Virus record (IMG/VR): IMGVR_UViG_3300020193_000024
Location: 1 to 57,504 of that record
Length of the DNA: 57,504 nt
DNA from: a virus
Taxonomy: Duplodnaviria; Caudoviricetes
Direction: 5' to 3' (one strand)
Shown: one piece after another, positions 21,064 through 27,076 of the stretch
How the letters are laid out: the number at the start of each line of letters is the position of its first letter
Numbering within the stretch: position 1 is the stretch's first letter
The notes under the pieces: generated by a model
Seen by the model: only the letters and a program-made list of their open reading frames with translations
The model's database searches: none
Told to the model about the DNA's origin: nothing
Position numbers and translations under genes: made by a program

Positions 21064-21942
21064 ATGAATGATAAACTTTTCAAATTGATAGTGTACTTGG
21101 GGCTGATAGCCGTCGCTGTGGCCCCTTCAAATGTGTTTGCTCAGTCATGCGGCCCTAGAAGGGTTGTAGTGACAACACCGCATGTGGTTCATACCCCAGT
21201 AGTTACTCCCATAGTTAAAGAGGTAGTTACTCCGGTTGCAGTGCCAGTTCTCGTACCCGCCTTCCAGTTTCAATACTCCCCTCCCTGCGTAACTCCAGGG
21301 TATGCAGCCGCCCCAGCTTATGGCGTACCTCATGGTGCAGGTTATGCACAACCAGGATATTCCGCAGGTTATGGGGCGCAAGGCTATGCAGGAGCGCCAG
21401 GCTATGGCCAGGGTGTTCCTCCAATGGCACAGCCAGGGTATCAACAAGGTGCTGCCCCTCAGCCAGGACAGCCTGGAGAGAGTCAGCAAGACATGGTTCG
21501 AGCTTTGGCTAAGGCTCTGCTAGAGGAAATGAGCCGTCAGTCTCAGGCACAAGCACCTGCGGGTGGCCCGCCTGATGCTGGTCCACCTGCGGCACCCGCT
21601 CCAGTAGGTGGCCCAAATCCCGCTCCAGCTAATCCTAACCCATTCCCGACCGCACTCCCTAATCAGTTTCCCGCAGGACCAAACGGTCAGGCGTTGGCAA
21701 CCTTTGCATATAACGCAACGATTAAGAACTGTGCTGCCTGTCACACAGGCATCGGGTCTAAGGGCGACACCATCATCTTCTCACAGCCTGGAGTGCTAAA
21801 TCCAGCCGCTCCGTGGAAAACAATGGCTAAGGAAGTTCAGGAAGGTCGTATGCCCAGCCGTGATTCACAGTATAGACTTACGCCAGAAGAGGCTCAGGCC
21901 ATTTTGGCCTGGTATACAGAAATGGGCCGAGCAGGTCGTTAA
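21064..21942 (+). CDS. Exported protein with low-complexity linker and C-terminal monoheme cytochrome c domain
   Basis: Signal peptide; G/Y/P/Q-rich linker; CAACH at 21730-21744; distal GRMP and LT.EE...IL.W class-I cytochrome c pattern. Confidence 0.8.
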   Translation: MNDKLFKLIVYLGLIAVAVAPSNVFAQSCGPRRVVVTTPHVVHTPVVTPIVKEVVTPVAVPVLVPAFQFQYSPPCVTPGYAAAPAYGVPHGAGYAQPGYSAGYGAQGYAGAPGYGQGVPPMAQPGYQQGAAPQPGQPGESQQDMVRALAKALLEEMSRQSQAQAPAGGPPDAGPPAAPAPVGGPNPAPANPNPFPTALPNQFPAGPNGQALATFAYNATIKNCAACHTGIGSKGDTIIFSQPGVLNPAAPWKTMAKEVQEGRMPSRDSQYRLTPEEAQAILAWYTEMGRAGR

Positions 21943-22030
21943 AAAAAAGTGAGGAACGACACTATATTAGGTGTTCCAAAAATTCAAGTTCGAACACTAT
22001 CTATGGTGTCAGTTTCCTACAGGAGGTAAT

Positions 22031-22645
22031 ATGAAAATTTGGCTAACCAGTATGGTTTTGGCCGTTGCTGCTCTGTTTTATGCAGGCGCAAAGGCTGACG
22101 CTGCTGTCGTTGTCCGTGCGGGCAACGTAAGAGTTGTTACACCGGGCTTCAATCGGGTTGCATTTGTTGGTCACAACCACAATTTTGCATTCAACAACCG
22201 TTTTGCGGTCAACCGATTTGCTTTCAATCATGGTCATAACTTTGCTTTCAATCATGGTCATAACTTTGCTTTCAATCGTTTTGGCTTCGGTTACAACAAC
22301 TTCGGCTACAACAACTTCGCTTTCAGCTATCCAGTAGCCAGCTATGCTGCTACTTACGCCGCTCCTAGCTACGCTGTTGCTTGCCCAACTGTTGCAGCCC
22401 CAATTACTTACTCGGCACCTGTTTGTGCCCCGGCAGTATCTTATGCTGCTGCACCTGTCTGCGCTCCAGTAGCGTCATACGGTGTTGGTTATGGTGCTGG
22501 TTTTGCGGCCCCATACGGTGTTGGATTCGGAGGCTATGGTTTCGGCGCACATAACGTAGGTTATGGCGTTGGATTCAACCGCTTCTTCGGGTTTAACCAC
22601 TTCAACACCTTCGGTAACAGGTTTGCAGTTCGCACTCATCACTAA
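22031..22645 (+). CDS. Exported F/N/G/Y/A-rich low-complexity repeat protein
   Basis: SD AGGAGG; signal peptide; FAFNHGHN, FGYNN and APVCAP repeats. Confidence 0.8.
   Translation: MKIWLTSMVLAVAALFYAGAKADAAVVVRAGNVRVVTPGFNRVAFVGHNHNFAFNNRFAVNRFAFNHGHNFAFNHGHNFAFNRFGFGYNNFGYNNFAFSYPVASYAATYAAPSYAVACPTVAAPITYSAPVCAPAVSYAAAPVCAPVASYGVGYGAGFAAPYGVGFGGYGFGAHNVGYGVGFNRFFGFNHFNTFGNRFAVRTHH
22217..22277 (+). repeat. 24-bp coding tandem repeat (about 2.5 copies)
   Basis: TTTGCTTTCAATCATGGTCATAAC repeated, encoding FAFNHGHN. Confidence 0.9.
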
Positions 22646-22664: not shown

Positions 22665-22700
22665 AAAAAACCCCTGGAAGTTATCTTCCAGGGGTTTTTT
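22665..22700. terminator. Bidirectional intrinsic terminator
   Basis: A6-CCCCTGGAAG-TTAT-CTTCCAGGGG-T6 between convergent genes. Confidence 0.9.
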
Positions 22701-22713
22701 ATTGCTTGTTTTT

Positions 22714-23178
22714 TTAGCCTAACAAGATTTCGACGCCACTCATTGGGTCTTCGTTAATCAGGACATCTTGCTGCTTGTGCGTTGGCTGACCTTCGTTGAG
22801 GGTCTGCTGCGGCTGCGGCGGAATTACCTGTTCTACGGTTCCTTTAGCGGTCACTCTGTCTGGTTGGTTAAGCAGTAGCTTTTGCTCTTGCATAGTGGTA
22901 CTCCTTTGCTCCTCTGGTGAAATAAGTGTTTCAATAAGCCTCAGTTCATTAGTCCGCAACATGGGCAAAAAGTAACTATCGCCCTGGAACTCGGCCCCAC
23001 GGGGGACAAGTATCATGTTGCCGACTCTCACGCCTCCCTTAATCGGCGGTTTGGCTAACTGTAAGTCACCTTTAGTGTTGTTCGCAAAAACGTACACCCC
23101 TTCGCCTTTAAGAGACTCAGCGATTTTAGCCTTGCGGTTCTCCGCACGCTCAAATCGGTTGAATTTATTGTATTTCAT
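22714..23178 (-). CDS. Hypothetical protein
   Basis: 154-aa ORF with SD-like AAAGG and upstream TATATA. Confidence 0.7.
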   Translation of the reverse strand: MKYNKFNRFERAENRKAKIAESLKGEGVYVFANNTKGDLQLAKPPIKGGVRVGNMILVPRGAEFQGDSYFLPMLRTNELRLIETLISPEEQRSTTMQEQKLLLNQPDRVTAKGTVEQVIPPQPQQTLNEGQPTHKQQDVLINEDPMSGVEILLG

Positions 23179-23249
23179 AGTTATAGCCTTTCATAAAACT
23201 AACTCTAACTATATAATAACGTTAGACGCTTTTTTCAAGGAGTAATTCA

Positions 23250-24137
23250 ATGAAACCGCCAAAATGGACCGATACTTACCCGCATGGTACTAAGCAGGGT
23301 GACGAAGAGGTCAAGTTCTTCATCTCACTAGCAAGAAACCCCAAGTTCCAGTGGCGTAGCACTTCCGCTATCGCTAAGGAATCTGGTTTGACCAAAGAAC
23401 GAGTCGAAGAAATCATTCAGAAGTACCACAGAAAAGGCATGATATTCCAGAATCCTAAGAATGATGAACAGTGGGGGTATTGGGAACGAGTGCCAGAAAT
23501 GCTACCTGACGCCAAGAAGTCTATTTCTGGCAAAGACCAGTGCGACCGGGTGAACAAGGCCGTCTCAAAGGATATGGTTTGCAATGATGACCCCTGCATT
23601 AGTGGCGATACCATGATGCAGTTCCAGACGCTCAAGACTAGCTATGGTGTCAATCTCCAGATGAAGGACGAATGGATTCCTATTGCCGATGTGAAACAAG
23701 AATGGCTAGTAACTAGTCCTCCAGTTGCTAGTGTTTACAACCCTGGTTTTGCCAATTTTGCTCCGACTCCTTGCGATGTGGTGCATGTGAACAAGGAAGG
23801 CGACCGCCGTATCTTCTATATCGACGTTGCCAACATGCCTACTGTAAAGGCAGAGAAGTTCATAGAAAACCTCAAGGCTGCGTTCAAAAAGAAAAAGGTC
23901 GAGAACGACCCGAAGATGGCTGAACATGTTTTGAAGATGGAAAAGCTGGAAGAACTCAAGCTAGAGGTTATGGCTAAGAACCCTTGTATTATGGGTGTGC
24001 CAGTTCCAGAACAAGAGTCGATTCCAGGAGCAGAGATGGGCGAAGCAGTACCGGACGACGTTGCGTATTTTCGCAGCAGGCTTTTTACACCACTGAACTT
24101 CCCCAAGGATGCCGGTAAGTCTGACTACAAGATATAA
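23250..24137 (+). CDS. Winged-HTH protein fused to a T4-type portal (gp20) clip/stem fragment
   Basis: N-terminal WRSTSAIAKESGLTKERVEEII; C-terminal DRRIFYIDVANMP..KA and IPGAE.G...DDVAYFR..LF..LNFP match gp20 motifs. Confidence 0.7.
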   Translation: MKPPKWTDTYPHGTKQGDEEVKFFISLARNPKFQWRSTSAIAKESGLTKERVEEIIQKYHRKGMIFQNPKNDEQWGYWERVPEMLPDAKKSISGKDQCDRVNKAVSKDMVCNDDPCISGDTMMQFQTLKTSYGVNLQMKDEWIPIADVKQEWLVTSPPVASVYNPGFANFAPTPCDVVHVNKEGDRRIFYIDVANMPTVKAEKFIENLKAAFKKKKVENDPKMAEHVLKMEKLEELKLEVMAKNPCIMGVPVPEQESIPGAEMGEAVPDDVAYFRSRLFTPLNFPKDAGKSDYKI

Positions 24138-24182
24138 ACTTCCAGATACTGTAGCGTCTGGACACGCTTTGCAACTCCTAAC

Positions 24183-24220
24183 AAAAACAAGGCGACCTTG
24201 CGCAGGGTCGCCTTGTTTTT
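24183..24220. terminator. Bidirectional intrinsic terminator
   Basis: AAAAACAAGGCGACCTTG-CG-CAGGGTCGCCTTGTTTTT. Confidence 0.9.
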
Positions 24221-24228
24221 CTAGTGTG

Positions 24229-24441
24229 TCAGAAGTTACCAGGTGCTTTACGGCTTGGCTTGTGGCTACCCATCTTGAATTTAGCGTCTGCTGCTGTTGG
24301 CATGAAGTAGCCATCAGGGTACTGTGAACGCACATAGGCGTCCGGGTAGGCCCAATGAGCAATACCGCCTCGTTTGGTGTCTTCGCTAACGGCAGGAAGC
24401 TCAAGCTTTTCGCCTTCTGCCCACTGTAGAAATGTCTTCAT
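24229..24441 (-). CDS. Small putative internal head protein with CTS-like N-terminus
   Basis: MKTFLQWAE; SD GGGAG; TAAATA upstream. Confidence 0.7.
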   Translation of the reverse strand: MKTFLQWAEGEKLELPAVSEDTKRGGIAHWAYPDAYVRSQYPDGYFMPTAADAKFKMGSHKPSRKAPGNF

Positions 24442-24523: not shown

Positions 24524-25234
24524 ATGACACAACCTGCCGTTATTGTTAGCAAAGTCAAGTTGACTCCTCTGGCAACGCCTCCTTTTGGGGAGTTGTCGGA
24601 ACATATAGTGCGAACGTGTAACTTTTGTGCTAAAGAGGTTGCTGCCCCGGCCTATGTGGAGCGTATTAACCAAAGACTAGGCGGAAAGAGGGATTTTTAT
24701 TGCTCATTCTGTCTTCGCAATGACCTTCACACCCGTAATAGCCGACACATCCTAGTTATGAGTTTCCGTAGCATTGTTGGCTATTATTACTACGAGCATT
24801 ACATCGGTTCCCACACTCCTGCCAGTCGTCGTATGTGGCTAGCCGAAATTGACGATTACGTCCAGGCCCATGCAGAGGTTGGTTTGACCAACCCTGTGTT
24901 TAACTACGACCCAAACACCTTGTTATGGTTTGTTGATTTCTCTAAGGTTGGCACTTCAAAAAAGAAAATCAAAGTGGAAGAAATCTTGAAAACTGTGGTT
25001 AATGTGCTAGCAACTTTTAACTTACCGGAACAAATACCTGGCATTCAGTCCACCAGGTTCTATGAGAAGTACCGAGACGCAATCATGGAGTTCTATAACC
25101 AGCGGTATCGGCCCGAAGGTCGCAAGATGCTTATTCCAACCTTCGTCGGGTGTGTGGGCAATGGCGACAACCGCTTAAACAATGTTCTTGAGAAGACCAG
25201 AAATTTCACCATGAATGATATGGTCCCCAGGTAA
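24524..25234 (+). CDS. Hypothetical protein with CxxC...CxxC Zn site
   Basis: CNFC and CSFC; extended -10 TGTTATAAT upstream. Confidence 0.7.
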   Translation: MTQPAVIVSKVKLTPLATPPFGELSEHIVRTCNFCAKEVAAPAYVERINQRLGGKRDFYCSFCLRNDLHTRNSRHILVMSFRSIVGYYYYEHYIGSHTPASRRMWLAEIDDYVQAHAEVGLTNPVFNYDPNTLLWFVDFSKVGTSKKKIKVEEILKTVVNVLATFNLPEQIPGIQSTRFYEKYRDAIMEFYNQRYRPEGRKMLIPTFVGCVGNGDNRLNNVLEKTRNFTMNDMVPR

Positions 25235-25999: not shown

Positions 26000-27076
26000 A
26001 TGATGAGATACAAGCAATGGAAATTACTAAATGAGTCGTTGGGTGGCGCACCCCTGACACTCGGCCTGGGTCGCCCATCGACGCTGGGCATTAGCGGCAG
26101 TCGTTTTGCCGAAGCCAAGTCTAAGAAGATGCTTGGCGGTGCAGACTTGGGCGGCGGCGATATGCCAATGCCGATGCCAAAGAAGAAGAAGAAGCCACAT
26201 CCTGACGACGTTCCCGATGAGGAAGGCGATGAGGACTTGGACAGCCTTGGCGGTGATGAGGACGAAATTCCCGACGACGAGGGCGACGAAGATACGGACG
26301 ACCTTGGCGATGAAGGCGAAGACGACCTTGACGACGAGGGTGGCGACGACGACGTTCCTGACGACCTGGGCGATGACCTGGGCGATGACCTGGGCGATGA
26401 CCTGGGCGATGACCTGGGCGATGACTTGGGCGGTGACATGGGTGGCGACATGGGTGGCGACGAAGATATGCCTATGCCAGCACCTAAGAAGAAGCCCAAC
26501 ATTCTGGACAAGACCCACATGATTCATCATGGCGCAAAAATGATGAAGAGTGGTGCTAAGATGTTGCACAAGGGTATGAAGGAAGAGAAGGAAGATTGCG
26601 GCGACGACCATGACGATGAGGGCGATGAGGAAGAGGGTAAGGCAATCCTTGGCTCCCCAATGGGATTCTGCCACAAGTGCAGCAAGAAACAATCCAAGAA
26701 GCAGTCCAAGAAACAATCGAAGAAAATGACCAAAGAAGAGGTCGAGTTCTTTAAGAGCATTCAGAGTCAACTAGGCGGAACCCGTTTCAAACAAGAAAAT
26801 GGTGAGTTTGTCGTAGACGAAGATGCTGTACTTCCTCCTTCGGACCCAAATGCAAACCTGGTAGACGATAACCAGCCTTCTCCTGGCGATGTAGGGTTTG
26901 CTCCGCAACAGCGTGTAGGCACTATTGGTTCGTTTGCCGAATGGCGTGCCCGCCATACTGGCGAGGCCATCAATGAGTGTCGTGGCTGTGGCAAGGGTAG
27001 CGAGAAAAAGAAGAAGCCAGCCAAAACTAAGAGGACTACTAAGGCCAAGAAGCCTAATATGTCCTGGTTTGGCTAA
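26000..27076 (+). CDS. Acidic/basic low-complexity putative prohead core or internal protein
   Basis: MMRYKQWKLLNE|S; DDLG repeats; KKQS repeats; TATATA and SD upstream. Confidence 0.75.
   Translation: MMRYKQWKLLNESLGGAPLTLGLGRPSTLGISGSRFAEAKSKKMLGGADLGGGDMPMPMPKKKKKPHPDDVPDEEGDEDLDSLGGDEDEIPDDEGDEDTDDLGDEGEDDLDDEGGDDDVPDDLGDDLGDDLGDDLGDDLGDDLGGDMGGDMGGDEDMPMPAPKKKPNILDKTHMIHHGAKMMKSGAKMLHKGMKEEKEDCGDDHDDEGDEEEGKAILGSPMGFCHKCSKKQSKKQSKKQSKKMTKEEVEFFKSIQSQLGGTRFKQENGEFVVDEDAVLPPSDPNANLVDDNQPSPGDVGFAPQQRVGTIGSFAEWRARHTGEAINECRGCGKGSEKKKKPAKTKRTTKAKKPNMSWFG
26360..26455 (+). repeat. 12-bp coding tandem repeat (8 units, DDLG/GDMG)
   Basis: GATGACCTGGGC x4 exact plus degenerate flanking units. 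Confidence 0.9.

What the first reader, a model, noticed from the sequence alone, without database searches (positions are those of the whole stretch)
23250..24137. DNA-binding winged helix fused to an isolated portal clip/stem fragment
Seen: the C-terminal ~100 aa (about 23802-24107) reads DRRIFYIDVANMPTVKAEKFIENLK...ESIPGAEMG...DDVAYFRSRLFTPLNFP. As I recall T4 gp20, the matching motifs are DRRVWYVDTGNMPARKA...TLPGADN...EDIRWFR..LY.AL.VP. The N-terminal ~85 aa looks like a winged HTH, wing and crown domains are absent, and the gene has its own terminator away from head genes. Established: the portal clip docks the large terminase, and portals are PAMPs sensed by Avs4-type STAND immune proteins. 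Inference: this is not the portal but a repurposed piece of it. It could be an adaptor that tethers terminase to DNA, a packaging inhibitor, or an immune decoy.
Basis: partly seen in the sequence, partly recalled or inferred. Interest (0 to 1): 0.85.

Follow-up and report, generated by a model that had tools for sequence, protein, structure and literature searches.

The report
Winged-helix protein with virion-motif mosaic tail
A small, highly conserved winged-helix protein of a group of giant bacteriophages here carries an extra tail stitched together from short, shuffled copies of the most conserved bits of the phage's own building blocks (capsid and portal proteins), one example of a so far undescribed kind of patchwork protein whose purpose is unknown.

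Summary
The ORF (23250-24137, +, 295 aa) is real, has a promoter-like site, a Shine-Dalgarno sequence and a bidirectional terminator, and is assembled identically in independent runs. Residues 1-108 are a confidently modelled winged helix. This domain is a single-copy core gene of a T4-like huge-phage clade, in fixed synteny, and normally stands alone (45 of 56 viral loci are 135 aa or shorter).

The gp20 match is significant (Pfam Portal_T4, 38 bits against a 22.9 cutoff). But the tail is not one clip/stem fragment. It is a non-colinear mosaic: an MCP (gp23) piece (152-177), portal stem/clip piece (178-214), a portal C-terminal helix (215-252), and portal channel-loop/stem piece (255-287).

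Relatives carry other combinations. 21 of 59 extended tails contain portal pieces, and 25 of 59 contain a piece of some virion gene (MCP, prohead protease, sheath, spike). Stand-alone mosaics of up to 534 aa also exist and are conserved between phages.

In-frame indels and long open frames argue for selection. Function is untested. My best guess is a mimic of conserved virion-protein motifs (a decoy or competitor). The fold search of the tail-only model was uninformative, and the complex prediction gave no verdict.

The parts
23190..23217 (+). sigma-70-type promoter-like site (TTCATA-16-TATAAT); the -10 element is conserved in most orthologues
   Evidence: 10 of 12 matches; 3 sites found against 2.0 expected, so weak alone; TATAAT-like box 25-35 nt upstream of the start in most of 19 aligned orthologue upstream regions; no T4-late TATAAATA box
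23238..23243 (+). Shine-Dalgarno AAGGAG, 7 nt before the ATG
   Evidence: read directly
23250..24137 (+). the ORF, 295 aa including stop codon coordinates
   Evidence: identical in independent contigs
23250..23573 (+). residues 1-108: conserved winged-helix domain plus C-terminal helix; the clade's core, usually stand-alone protein
   Evidence: 17 invariant columns, all within residues 6-100; pLDDT 87-97; Foldseek winged-helix hits; 56 viral loci match only residues 1-121; 45 of 56 ORFs are 135 aa or shorter
23574..23702 (+). residues 109-151: linker predicted disordered. It contains a conserved module (~120-140, DTMMQFQTLKTSYGVNLQMKD) that recurs in P0002, P0003 and the stand-alone mosaic P0134; its source gene was not found. 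DDPCISGDT (113-121) weakly resembles the portal extein/intein junction (E 2-4, not significant)
   Evidence: pLDDT below 50; no match in G001-G005; for the weak junction match
23703..23780 (+). residues 152-177: piece of the major capsid protein (Gp23 family), equivalent to MCP residues 357-382 of relative G001
   Evidence: BLASTP 50% identity over 26 aa, E 4e-6; tblastn E 4.8e-4 to 1e-3; the same piece in P0002 and P0003 (E 2e-6, 2e-7) and at 70-78% identity in P0005 and P0010; donor gene identified as Gp23, 6.6e-86
23781..23891 (+). residues 178-214: portal piece A = end of stem helix alpha5, clip beta-strand, clip tip and clip helix alpha6 (gp20 274-~313; clade portal ~497-537). Clip-tip residues N195, M196 and K200 align with gp20 N291, M292 and K296, which contact terminase gp17
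   Evidence: domain boundaries and gp17 contacts from PMC4493910 (passages read); hairpin plus helix modelled at pLDDT 88-95 in the full-length model
23892..24005 (+). residues 215-252: portal piece C, out of order; equals the clade portal C-terminal helix ~708-752 (LKIQKLEDLKLQVLAQNPxLLGVG), lying just beyond the end of the Pfam Portal_T4 model
   Evidence: BLASTP E 2e-9 to 7e-5 against 5 of 5 clade portals; tblastn 5.9e-8; 69% identity over 26 aa in P0002
24012..24110 (+). residues 255-287: portal piece B = channel loop plus stem helix alpha7 (gp20 ~346-377; clade portal ~580-612)
   Evidence: boundaries
24139..24175 (-). single copy of a 37-nt dispersed repeat (side observation), between the stop codon and the terminator
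   Evidence: summed contig depth 2,449 against 7 in run X3, with many different flanks; 1 copy in the window; 0 in reference prokaryote genomes; 3-9 copies at irregular spacing in 4 other viral loci, clustered upstream of genes
24183..24220 (.). bidirectional intrinsic-terminator-like hairpin (10-bp stem 24188-24197/24206-24215, A-run before and T-run after), shared with the convergent 70-aa gene
22714..23178 (-). divergent 154-aa gene, syntenic partner, no known family
   Evidence: present next to the winged-helix gene in 54 loci; no Pfam, PHROG, NCBIfam or PADLOC hit
24229..24441 (-). convergent 70-aa gene, syntenic partner, 70-80% identical across the clade, no known family
   Evidence: 52 loci
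24524..25234 (+). 236-aa gene with Cys-rich motifs, syntenic, no known family
   Evidence: 35 loci

Best explanation
SHOWN. The gene encodes the core winged-helix protein of a clade of T4-like huge phages (genomes about 340-600 kb). In this lineage the protein has gained a 190-residue C-terminal extension. The extension is a 'virion-motif mosaic': a linker predicted to be disordered, followed by short (26-38 aa), diverged, re-ordered copies of the most conserved segments of the major capsid protein and the portal (stem/clip with the terminase-contacting tip, a C-terminal helix, and channel loop/stem). The same building principle recurs in other tails of this family and in stand-alone ORFs of up to 534 aa in the same phage group, drawing on portal, MCP, prohead protease, tail sheath and a spike-like protein. 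Reading frames are maintained across many indels and across 52%-identical orthologues, so the mosaics are under selection as proteins.

INFERRED (mechanism). The tail acts as a molecular mimic. It displays, as exposed linear or helical elements, the motifs by which unassembled virion proteins are recognised, and so competes for whatever binds those motifs. I think the most likely target is host factors that sense conserved virion proteins, which would make it a counter-defence decoy or blocker. The gene appears to be expressed from a sigma-70-type promoter, before or independently of late structural genes. The winged helix would serve as a stable, possibly nucleic-acid-bound carrier. The alternative target is the phage's own, or a competitor's, assembly and packaging partners. 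The confidence given is for the whole statement including the inferred mechanism; the descriptive part alone I would put at about 0.9.
For: Core gene: 56 viral loci match the N-domain only; 45 of 56 ORFs are 135 aa or shorter; synteny holds in 54, 52 and 35 loci; a 114-aa form sits in the same synteny in a 595-kb GenBank phage.

Mosaic in the query.

Mosaic in relatives: 21 of 59 tails carry portal pieces at E<=0.05 against 5 portals, many at 1e-8 to 1e-21. Adding MCP pieces (P0029, P0031, P0040, L021) gives 25 of 59. Donor genes were identified by Pfam: Gp23 6.6e-86, Peptidase_S77 2.1e-28, sheath, Phage_base_V.

Stand-alone mosaics: P0064, P0083, P0068, P0134, P0098, P0130, P0112 and P0109, with 2-3 separate Portal_T4 stretches in P0064, P0083 and P0068. 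A 460-aa orthologue, 52% identical over all 534 residues of P0064, lies on a 262-kb contig that also has a short winged-helix gene.

Selection: 3 and 7 in-frame indels, with homologous C-terminal ends preserved against P0003; N-domain about 85-88% identical against about 64-68% in aligned tail columns.

Not an artefact.

Pieces are not recent self-copies: L036's piece is 52% identical to its own portal, 71% to another phage's portal, with no nucleotide similarity.

Promoter class.

Background for the decoy idea: bacterial Avs families sense monomeric MCP, portal and other core virion proteins through conserved core and assembly interfaces (PMC13581612: abstract and section 12 read).
Against: No direct evidence of any binding partner or of expression.

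The Avs paper I read describes recognition of whole conserved folds through extended shape-complementary interfaces. Pieces of 26-38 residues may not reproduce such a surface.

The tail-only model is poor (mean pLDDT 56) and finds no portal-like fold (all E>1).

Most family members lack any tail, and 34 of 59 tails show no recognisable virion piece. So the tail is dispensable for the core function, and the fusion partner may be incidental.

The recognition helix of the winged helix is acidic (KERVEEIIQKY), and no Pfam HTH model reaches its gathering score, so DNA binding is not established.

No hit in PADLOC or NCBIfam.

Survivorship bias: only intact ORFs are in the protein databases, so frameshifted relatives would be invisible.
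Confidence: 0.35

Rival explanations
1. Assembly or packaging modulator. The portal-derived pieces (clip tip, stem helices, C-terminal helix) and the MCP piece bind the partners of the genuine proteins: neighbouring portal subunits, large terminase, MCP capsomers. The protein would then cap, delay or poison assembly or packaging, either of the phage's own particles (timing control, or tethering terminase to DNA through the winged helix) or of a co-infecting relative (inter-phage competition).
For: The retained portal pieces are those that line the channel and form the terminase-docking clip. Query N195, M196 and K200 align with gp20 N291, M292 and K296, which contact gp17. The pieces are the most conserved segments, which are often subunit interfaces. 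L036's piece resembles another phage's portal more than its own, which would fit targeting of competitors.
Against: The mosaics also contain sheath, spike-like and prohead-protease pieces, which have no common assembly partner. The sigma-70-type promoter does not suggest co-expression with late genes. Self-poisoning would need an explanation. No structural support was obtained.
Confidence: 0.2
2. Evolutionary debris with little or no function. The gap between the winged-helix gene and the convergent 70-aa gene is a hotspot where short fragments of abundant or conserved genes are pasted by illegitimate recombination or template switching. Loss of the stop codon then reads them through. The tail is tolerated rather than used.
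For: The tail is absent in most orthologues (45 of 56 ORFs are 135 aa or shorter). Tails are hypervariable in content and length. The intergenic gap varies, with a 2-kb insertion in L003. Each close relative has lost different pieces. The linker is predicted disordered.
Against: The chance of about 190 codons staying open in random 47% GC sequence is around 1e-4 (my estimate). 7 indels against P0003 are all in frame, with a conserved C-terminal end. The 'disordered' linker is itself about 65-70% conserved. Stand-alone mosaics of 452-534 aa keep module order at 52% identity. In G001, 10 of the 12 copies of the tag YRSIDD[PD]W lie near the C-terminal end of a small ORF, and six of those ORFs carry a virion-gene piece, which implies they are translated and recognised.
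Confidence: 0.2
3. Silent-cassette store. The diverged gene pieces serve as donors for segmental gene conversion of the genuine portal and MCP genes, as pilS or vls cassettes do in bacteria, letting the phage change conserved epitopes or CRISPR targets.
For: G001 holds MCP pieces that together tile most of the gene: 1-58, 45-102, 218-310, 307-432, 318-368, 400-448 and 438-463, at 33-80% identity.
Against: No nucleotide similarity between L036's piece and its own portal. The pieces are joined in frame, re-ordered and carry shared peptide tags, which a DNA donor would not need. Identity (33-80% at protein level) is too low for homologous recombination.
Confidence: 0.05
4. Assembly chimera or sequencing artefact joining a winged-helix gene to portal DNA.
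For: The source is metagenomic, and the record is a fragment.
Against: One contig of a non-source run spans 22700-24163 with 0 differences, and contigs of two further runs bridge the internal junctions. The exact protein was seen on 4 contigs. The pieces are only 35-50% identical to genuine clade genes, not the ~100% a chimera would give. Homologous tails occur in other samples.
Confidence: 0.01

Closest known systems
T4 gp20-type portal protein (Pfam Portal_T4, PF07230; PDB 3JA7/6UZC)
   Same: Residues 178-214 and 255-287 are homologous to the stem alpha5/clip and channel-loop/stem alpha7 segments, scoring above the Pfam gathering score. The terminase-contacting clip-tip residues N-M-P..K are retained.
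   Different: Only 102 of 433 profile positions are covered. There is no wing. The central clip strands are replaced by a helix taken from the portal's C-terminal end, so the order is non-colinear. It is fused to an MCP piece and a winged helix. The genuine portal of relatives is a separate 831-860-aa gene carrying a mini-intein.
Winged-helix nucleic-acid-binding domains (Zalpha, MarR/IclR/TrmB HTH, Sso10a, SelB WH)
   Same: Three-helix bundle plus beta-wing fold, TM 0.8 on 62-65-residue Zalpha domains; similar neighbours in the ESM Atlas structure search.
   Different: No Pfam HTH model reaches its gathering score. The recognition helix is acidic. It forms its own family, found here only in viral and metagenomic contigs. 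DNA or RNA binding is untested.
Phage counter-defence mimics and decoys (for example the DNA mimic Ocr, recalled from memory) and the pattern-recognition immunity they would face (Avs families sensing portal, MCP and others; PMC13581612)
   Same: The mosaics are made precisely of conserved segments of the protein classes that Avs-type sensors detect (portal, MCP). They are hypervariable between close relatives, as arms-race loci tend to be.
   Different: My searches and the review passages read turned up no decoy built from fragments of the phage's own structural proteins. Avs recognition as described uses whole folds, not short motifs. No binding has been shown.
Silent partial-gene cassettes for antigenic variation (pilS, vls; recalled from memory)
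   Same: Multiple diverged partial copies of an essential surface or structural gene are scattered in one genome.
   Different: Here the pieces are translated, concatenated in frame, shuffled and tagged, and show no DNA-level homology to the expressed gene.
Polyvalent proteins of phages and conjugative elements (Iyer et al. 2017; recalled from memory, not read here)
   Same: Long phage proteins assembled from many unrelated modules, proposed to act in conflicts with the host.
   Different: Polyvalent proteins string together whole enzymatic or binding domains. These mosaics string together 15-45-residue motifs of virion proteins, with no intact domain.

Membership tests
T4-type portal protein (Portal_T4, PF07230) | Sequence match above the family's gathering score | tested here: met
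   38 bits against 22.9, E 1.1e-9; 35.9 bits in the six-frame search
T4-type portal protein (Portal_T4, PF07230) | Full domain set: wing, stem, clip and crown, covering most of the profile | tested here: not met
   Only profile positions 201-302 of 433 are matched. No wing. Genuine clade portals match positions 32-430.
T4-type portal protein (Portal_T4, PF07230) | Colinear stem-clip-stem topology | tested here: not met
   The order in the query is portal 497-537, then 708-752, then 580-612. The clip strands (ERW..WIPIRP) are missing.
T4-type portal protein (Portal_T4, PF07230) | Portal-like three-dimensional fold of the matched part | tested here: inconclusive
   Hairpin plus helices were modelled at pLDDT 88-95 in the full-length model. 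The tail-only model has mean pLDDT 56, and Foldseek against the PDB gave no portal hit.
T4-type portal protein (Portal_T4, PF07230) | Dodecameric ring at the capsid vertex | not testable with these tools
   Needs biochemistry or cryo-EM.
Winged-helix DNA-binding proteins | Three helices plus beta-hairpin wing | tested here: met
   H15-28, H38-45, H49-61, E65-67, E74-77 at pLDDT 94-97; Foldseek TM 0.79-0.82 on Zalpha domains, plus MarR and IclR hits; Atlas structure rows for IclR, MarR and TrmB
Winged-helix DNA-binding proteins | Membership of a curated HTH family | tested here: not met
   MCM_WH_arc 18.7 bits (cutoff 26.1) and TrmB 15.3 bits (cutoff 25.6); no NCBIfam hit
Winged-helix DNA-binding proteins | Binds DNA or RNA | not testable with these tools
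   Needs EMSA or ChIP.
Core winged-helix protein family of this huge-phage clade (unnamed) | Conserved N-domain signature (W6 Y10 G13 G17 E19 E20 F24 R29 R36 S37 E53 I55 K58 Y59 W78 R80 R100) | tested here: met
   Invariant in 20 of 20 aligned members, query included
Core winged-helix protein family of this huge-phage clade (unnamed) | Synteny: divergent 154-aa gene upstream, convergent 70-aa gene downstream | tested here: met
   54 and 52 loci share the neighbours; the same holds in LR756511.1
Virion-motif mosaic proteins (class defined in this report) | Two or more short pieces homologous to conserved segments of different virion proteins, in non-native order, in one open frame | tested here: met
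   MCP piece plus three portal pieces, non-colinear; analogous proteins
Anti-defence decoy against virion-protein sensors | Binds or blocks a host sensor and rescues phage growth | not testable with these tools
   No host or sensor is known for this phage; no PADLOC hit

The most novel reading that the evidence does not exclude
Huge T4-like phages encode a class of 'virion-motif mosaic' proteins. Some are fused to a core winged-helix protein, as here; others stand alone and reach 534 aa. They are strings of the conserved motifs of portal, capsid, prohead protease, sheath and spike proteins, and they work as polyvalent decoys: by presenting these motifs early in infection, they occupy or mis-assemble the host's pattern-recognition sensors (Avs-like, Lit/CapRel-like) before the genuine late proteins appear.
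Probability: 0.2. Interest if true: 0.9.

Novelty: categorically new. Interest (0 to 1): 0.74.

Why it matters
If the mosaics are functional, as frame conservation suggests, they would be a kind of protein I could not find described: open reading frames built from re-ordered 15-45-residue copies of the most conserved motifs of several virion proteins.

That raises two questions, both testable.

First, how are they generated? Some process copies short segments of structural genes and joins them in frame, often at lysine-rich junctions.

Second, what are they for? Bacterial immunity is now known to sense just these proteins (portal, MCP and others). A phage-encoded display of their conserved motifs is therefore an obvious candidate for a new counter-defence principle, or alternatively for a weapon between phages or a regulator of giant-capsid assembly.

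There is also a practical warning for annotation. Pfam Portal_T4 scores above threshold on proteins that are not portals.

Tried and rejected
Fold test of the tail alone. An AlphaFold2 model of residues 170-295, built with an alignment of mosaics and genuine portal segments, gave mean pLDDT 56. Foldseek against the PDB gave no hit with E below 1. This is uninformative, and the portal relationship rests on sequence.

Complex prediction of the tail with residues 340-765 of a clade portal: no verdict (score 0.00, controls not run). It is not evidence either way.

Selection test from DNA. The metagenome scan for close tail-bearing relatives returned only N-domain loci and portal-like matches, most at 34-42% identity, and no DNA of P0002 or P0003.

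Expression. No RNA holder is listed among 18 runs, so nothing can be said about expression.

Source of module 106-150. No match in five large relatives. Nothing rang, which shows nothing.

CRISPR-repeat idea for the high-depth 37-nt element. Rejected: 0 matches in reference prokaryote genomes, and irregular spacing in other viral contigs. There was no Rfam family at threshold (only STnc250 at 22 bits against 42, E 0.17).

Resemblance of the C-terminal ends of P0002, P0003 and the query to the MCP C-terminus (…FYARLSIANFVI). Seen by eye. BLASTP does not report it, so it stays a lead only.

Resemblance of DDPCISGDT (113-121) to the portal extein/intein junction. E 2-4, not significant.

A shared C-terminal tag in the window. 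None found: YRSIDD[PD]W occurs 0 times in the window against 12 in G001, and a loose scan of C-termini was uninformative.

Databases. No NCBIfam or PADLOC hits for the ORF and three neighbours. P0064 has no match in 50,697 GenBank phage records.

Literature. Searches (listings and abstracts seen) and passages read in PMC13581612 and PMC13728456 found no description of proteins made of shuffled structural-gene pieces, nor of decoys made from virion-protein fragments. This covers only the held library; supplements are closed and may hold relevant lists.

The script machine was lost, so later counts were made by eye from tool outputs.
Full report
1. THE OBJECT

The ORF is at 23250..24137 (+) and encodes 295 aa from an ATG start. 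Its signals are as follows:
- a sigma-70-type promoter-like site at 23190-23217;
- AAGGAG 7 nt before the ATG;
- a 10-bp GC-rich hairpin 51-83 nt after the stop codon, flanked by an A-run and a T-run (24183-24220). This would terminate both this gene and the convergent 70-aa gene.

The window is an entire IMG/VR record of 57.5 kb, estimated 11% complete. It holds no second Portal_T4 match. Other genes in it mark a T4-like huge myovirus: tail sheath, a gp15-like sheath stabiliser, a head-tail adaptor, NAMPT, NUDIX, Dam methylase, glutamate dehydrogenase and an aminotransferase.

The gene is not an assembly artefact. In a lake-water run that is not the likely source, one 1,916-nt contig covers 22700-24163 with 0 differences. 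Contigs of two further runs bridge the internal junctions with 0 differences. These runs share a habitat and year, so they may come from one campaign.

2. CHECK OF THE OBSERVATION

The portal similarity is real.
- Pfam Portal_T4: E 1.1e-9, 38 bits against a gathering score of 22.9, query 181-287 on profile 201-302 of 433.
- PHROG 213 'portal protein': 1.5e-9.
- An exhaustive HMMER search with residues 170-295 found 95 proteins at E<=1e-3. The best non-family hits are 830-890-aa proteins at about 40% identity.

The N-terminal winged helix is supported by an AlphaFold2 model (residues 1-108, pLDDT 87-97). It is also supported by Foldseek hits to Zalpha, MarR, IclR and Sso10a, with TM up to 0.82 on the target but a best E-value of only 2.4e-3, and by the ESM Atlas structure neighbours. 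No curated HTH family reaches its threshold.

3. WHAT THE N-DOMAIN IS

The N-domain is the conserved part of the family. In an alignment of 20 members, all 17 invariant columns lie in residues 6-100, and everything after about residue 105 is unalignable across the family.

In IMG/VR, 56 loci encode a relative, and every match stops by residue 121. Of the 56 ORFs, 45 are 135 aa or shorter. The contigs reach 533 kb.

Synteny is fixed:
- a divergent 154-aa gene, in 54 loci;
- a convergent 70-aa gene, in 52 loci at 70-80% identity;
- a 236-aa Cys-rich gene, in 35 loci.

A 595-kb GenBank 'uncultured phage' (LR756511.1) has a 114-aa version in the same arrangement.

The gene is therefore a single-copy core gene of a huge-phage clade. 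It is normally about 107 aa, and the 190-residue extension in the window fills the space before the 70-aa gene.

Most of 19 orthologues keep a TATAAT-like box 25-35 nt upstream of the start, and none shows the T4-late TATAAATA box. This suggests transcription by host-type RNA polymerase rather than late transcription. That is an inference.

4. WHAT THE TAIL IS

Five large relatives (four at least 91% complete, one 69%) each carry one genuine T4-type portal of 831-860 aa. It is about 300 aa longer than gp20 because of a mini-intein after about residue 100 (…ADE|C[LV][AS]G[DNS]T … VYD[LM]SV … HN|CQ; read).

BLASTP of the query against these portals shows three pieces in non-native order:
- query 177-214 on portal ~497-537;
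- query 215-252 on portal ~708-752 (E 2e-9 to 7e-5 in 5 of 5 portals);
- query 255-287 on portal ~580-612.

I mapped these using the published gp20 boundaries (clip 279-358, stem 255-278 and 359-377, channel loop 350-359, crown 451-524; PMC4493910, passages read).
- Piece A is the end of stem helix alpha5 plus the clip strand, clip tip and helix alpha6.
- Piece B is the channel loop plus stem helix alpha7.
- Piece C comes from the helix just beyond the end of the Pfam model, towards the portal's C-terminal end.

The gp17-contacting tip residues N291, M292 and K296 align with query N195, M196 and K200.

Residues 152-177 are not portal at all. They match residues 357-382 of the major capsid protein of relative G001 (50% identity over 26 aa, BLASTP E 4e-6; tblastn). 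That gene is Gp23 by Pfam (6.6e-86).

Residues 109-151 are predicted disordered. Even so, they are conserved in P0002 and P0003, and they contain a module that recurs in the stand-alone mosaic P0134. The source of this module was not found.

5. THE SAME PRINCIPLE IN RELATIVES

I collected 69 family proteins: 58 from the protein search limited to 162-517 aa, plus 11 viral-locus ORFs of at least 140 aa. Two were dropped because my motif anchor failed (P0006, L057). Eight more were dropped because their tails were shorter than 30 aa. That left 59 tails.

Against the five clade portals, 21 of 59 tails had at least one hit at E<=0.05, many at 1e-8 to 1e-21. The hits cover different subsets of portal 61-84, 454-470, 490-506, 505-537, 553-576, 579-612 and 727-752. 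Sometimes the pieces are colinear with large deletions, and sometimes they are permuted.

I then fetched the complete 532,729-bp relative G001 and ran tblastn of all tails against it. This added pieces of:
- the MCP (P0029, P0031, P0040, L021 and others);
- the prohead protease (P0041, P0015);
- the 663-aa ORF between portal and protease (P0009, P0010);
- a spike-like Phage_base_V protein (P0032);
- a sheath motif (L021, weak, E 0.008).

The donor genes were identified. In all, 25 of 59 tails carry a recognisable virion-gene piece and 34 do not.

In the window itself, no other structural-gene piece exists outside this ORF.

6. STAND-ALONE MOSAICS AND MINI-ORFS

The exhaustive search also returned proteins without the winged helix that consist largely of such pieces (read):
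- P0064 (534 aa), P0083 (452 aa), P0068 (472 aa) and P0134 (409 aa);
- P0098 (141 aa), P0130, P0112 and P0109.

They carry protease, portal, sheath and MCP modules in scrambled order, with collagen-like spacers. Pfam reports 2-3 separate Portal_T4 stretches in P0064, P0083 and P0068, and weak Peptidase_S77 hits in P0064 and in the P0041 tail.

A 460-aa orthologue, 52% identical over all 534 residues of P0064, lies on a 262-kb contig that also has a short winged-helix gene (L017).

In G001, diverged pieces of MCP (33-80% identity, together tiling most of the gene), portal, sheath and spike lie in small ORFs scattered over the genome. The motif YRSIDD[PD]W occurs 12 times in G001. In 10 cases it lies near the C-terminal end of a small ORF, usually after a lysine run. 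It occurs 0 times in the window.

7. ARE THE PIECES RECENT SELF-COPIES?

They are not, in the one case I could test. On contig G006, the tail piece of L036 is 52% identical to that phage's own portal and 71% identical to another phage's portal. blastn-short finds no nucleotide similarity.

8. SELECTION

Against P0002 (71% identity overall) the tail differs by 3 indels. Against P0003 (56%) it differs by 7 indels covering 81 alignment columns. Both proteins stay in frame, and the alignment with P0003 still ends at the same terminus, …NFPK..G..D.

By my count from those alignments, the N-domain is about 85-88% identical and the aligned tail columns about 64-68%.

Together with the 452-534-aa open frames of the stand-alone mosaics, this argues for selection on the protein. 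The caveat is survivorship: broken relatives would not appear in protein databases. A dN/dS test could not be run because no DNA of the close relatives was retrievable.

9. MECHANISM

What is shown is the architecture and its conservation. Function is inferred.

The modules are the most conserved motifs of the very proteins that bacterial STAND/Avs sensors detect as monomers (PMC13581612: abstract and section 12 read). The tails are hypervariable between close relatives, and the promoter looks non-late. On that basis I favour a mimic or decoy role at 0.35.

Against this: the same paper describes recognition of whole folds through extended interfaces; most orthologues have no tail; and I obtained no structural or interaction support.

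The rivals are:
- an assembly or packaging modulator or inter-phage poison, which the retained clip tip fits (0.2);
- tolerated debris at a recombination hotspot (0.2);
- a silent-cassette store (0.05);
- an artefact (0.01, refuted).

The remaining probability is for functions I have not thought of.

10. COMPARISON AND NOVELTY

The protein is not a portal family member in any functional sense. Three of the four defining features I could test were not met or were inconclusive, although it passes the Pfam threshold.

It is a member of an unnamed core winged-helix family, and of a class I can only define here, the virion-motif mosaics. Four literature searches and one review gave no description of such proteins. 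I therefore rate it categorically new, noting that its function is unknown.

Noticed in passing
window 24139-24175 (minus strand), between the ORF's stop codon and the terminator: A 37-nt element with an internal 5-bp hairpin is highly repeated in the lake metagenomes (summed contig depth 2,449 against 7 for the flanks, with many different flanking sequences). There is one copy in the window, none in 185,579 reference prokaryote genomes, and 3-9 copies at irregular spacing on four loci of smaller viral contigs, where it clusters directly upstream of genes. It looks like a regulatory intergenic repeat of another phage; it is not a CRISPR repeat.
   Followed up: partly
L059-L063 and L157 (portal genes of relatives), about residues 100-336 of each portal ORF: All six clade portals read carry a mini-intein-like insertion after ...ADE (C[LV][AS]G[DNS]T ... 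TxDHR ... VYD[LM]SV ... HN|CQ), which makes the ORFs 831-860 aa. Intein motifs were recognised by eye and from memory, not tested with a profile.
   Followed up: no
G001 (532,729-bp relative; loci L128-L156), e.g. 58150-58437, 351043-351617, 453411-453812, 517817-518509: A family of 12 small ORFs shares the motif (K)KYRSIDD[PD]W. In 10 of them it lies near the C-terminal end, and several of these consist of one MCP, protease or 663-aa-ORF piece plus this tag. In one ORF the motif lies at the N-terminus. The partner of the tag is unknown.
   Followed up: partly
L148:17460-17816 (minus) = G001 417457-417816: A 119-aa ORF far from the head module carries a portal clip piece (VFYIDVGQLPPFKAEAFVERMK, about 85% identical to G001's own portal there by eye) followed by a shortened ...FFIPVR... 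segment. Pfam Portal_T4 gives 21 bits, just below the cutoff.
   Followed up: partly
L165:6896-7525 (minus) and L160:1495-1689 (plus): Further small ORFs (209 aa and 64 aa) hold only an internal MCP segment (insertion domain, or Gp23 profile positions 135-196 at 59 bits). They sit next to unrelated genes on 262-kb and 123-kb contigs.
   Followed up: no
tails of P0005, P0009, P0022, P0048, L021, L040 (C-terminal ends): Several otherwise unrelated tails end in W-x-L-D-V (e.g. ...EWDLDV...DWTLDV...DWALDV). This may be another lineage's C-terminal tag, analogous to YRSIDDPW. The script meant to look for its source was lost.
   Followed up: no
window 21971-22645 (+), 26000-27076 (+), 21064-21942 (+): Unusual neighbours: a 224-aa ORF with a signal-like N-terminus and NHGHNFAFN-type repeats; a 358-aa ORF with long acidic (D-L-G-D) repeats whose C-terminal part is conserved in 12 loci; and a 292-aa ORF ending in a cytochrome-c (Cytochrome_CBB3) domain (E 4.6e-6).
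   Followed up: no
table: IMG/VR classes the 533-kb and 343-kb relatives G001 and G005 as 'provirus', while G003 has direct terminal repeats. This is odd for T4-like huge phages and possibly a classification artefact.
   Followed up: no
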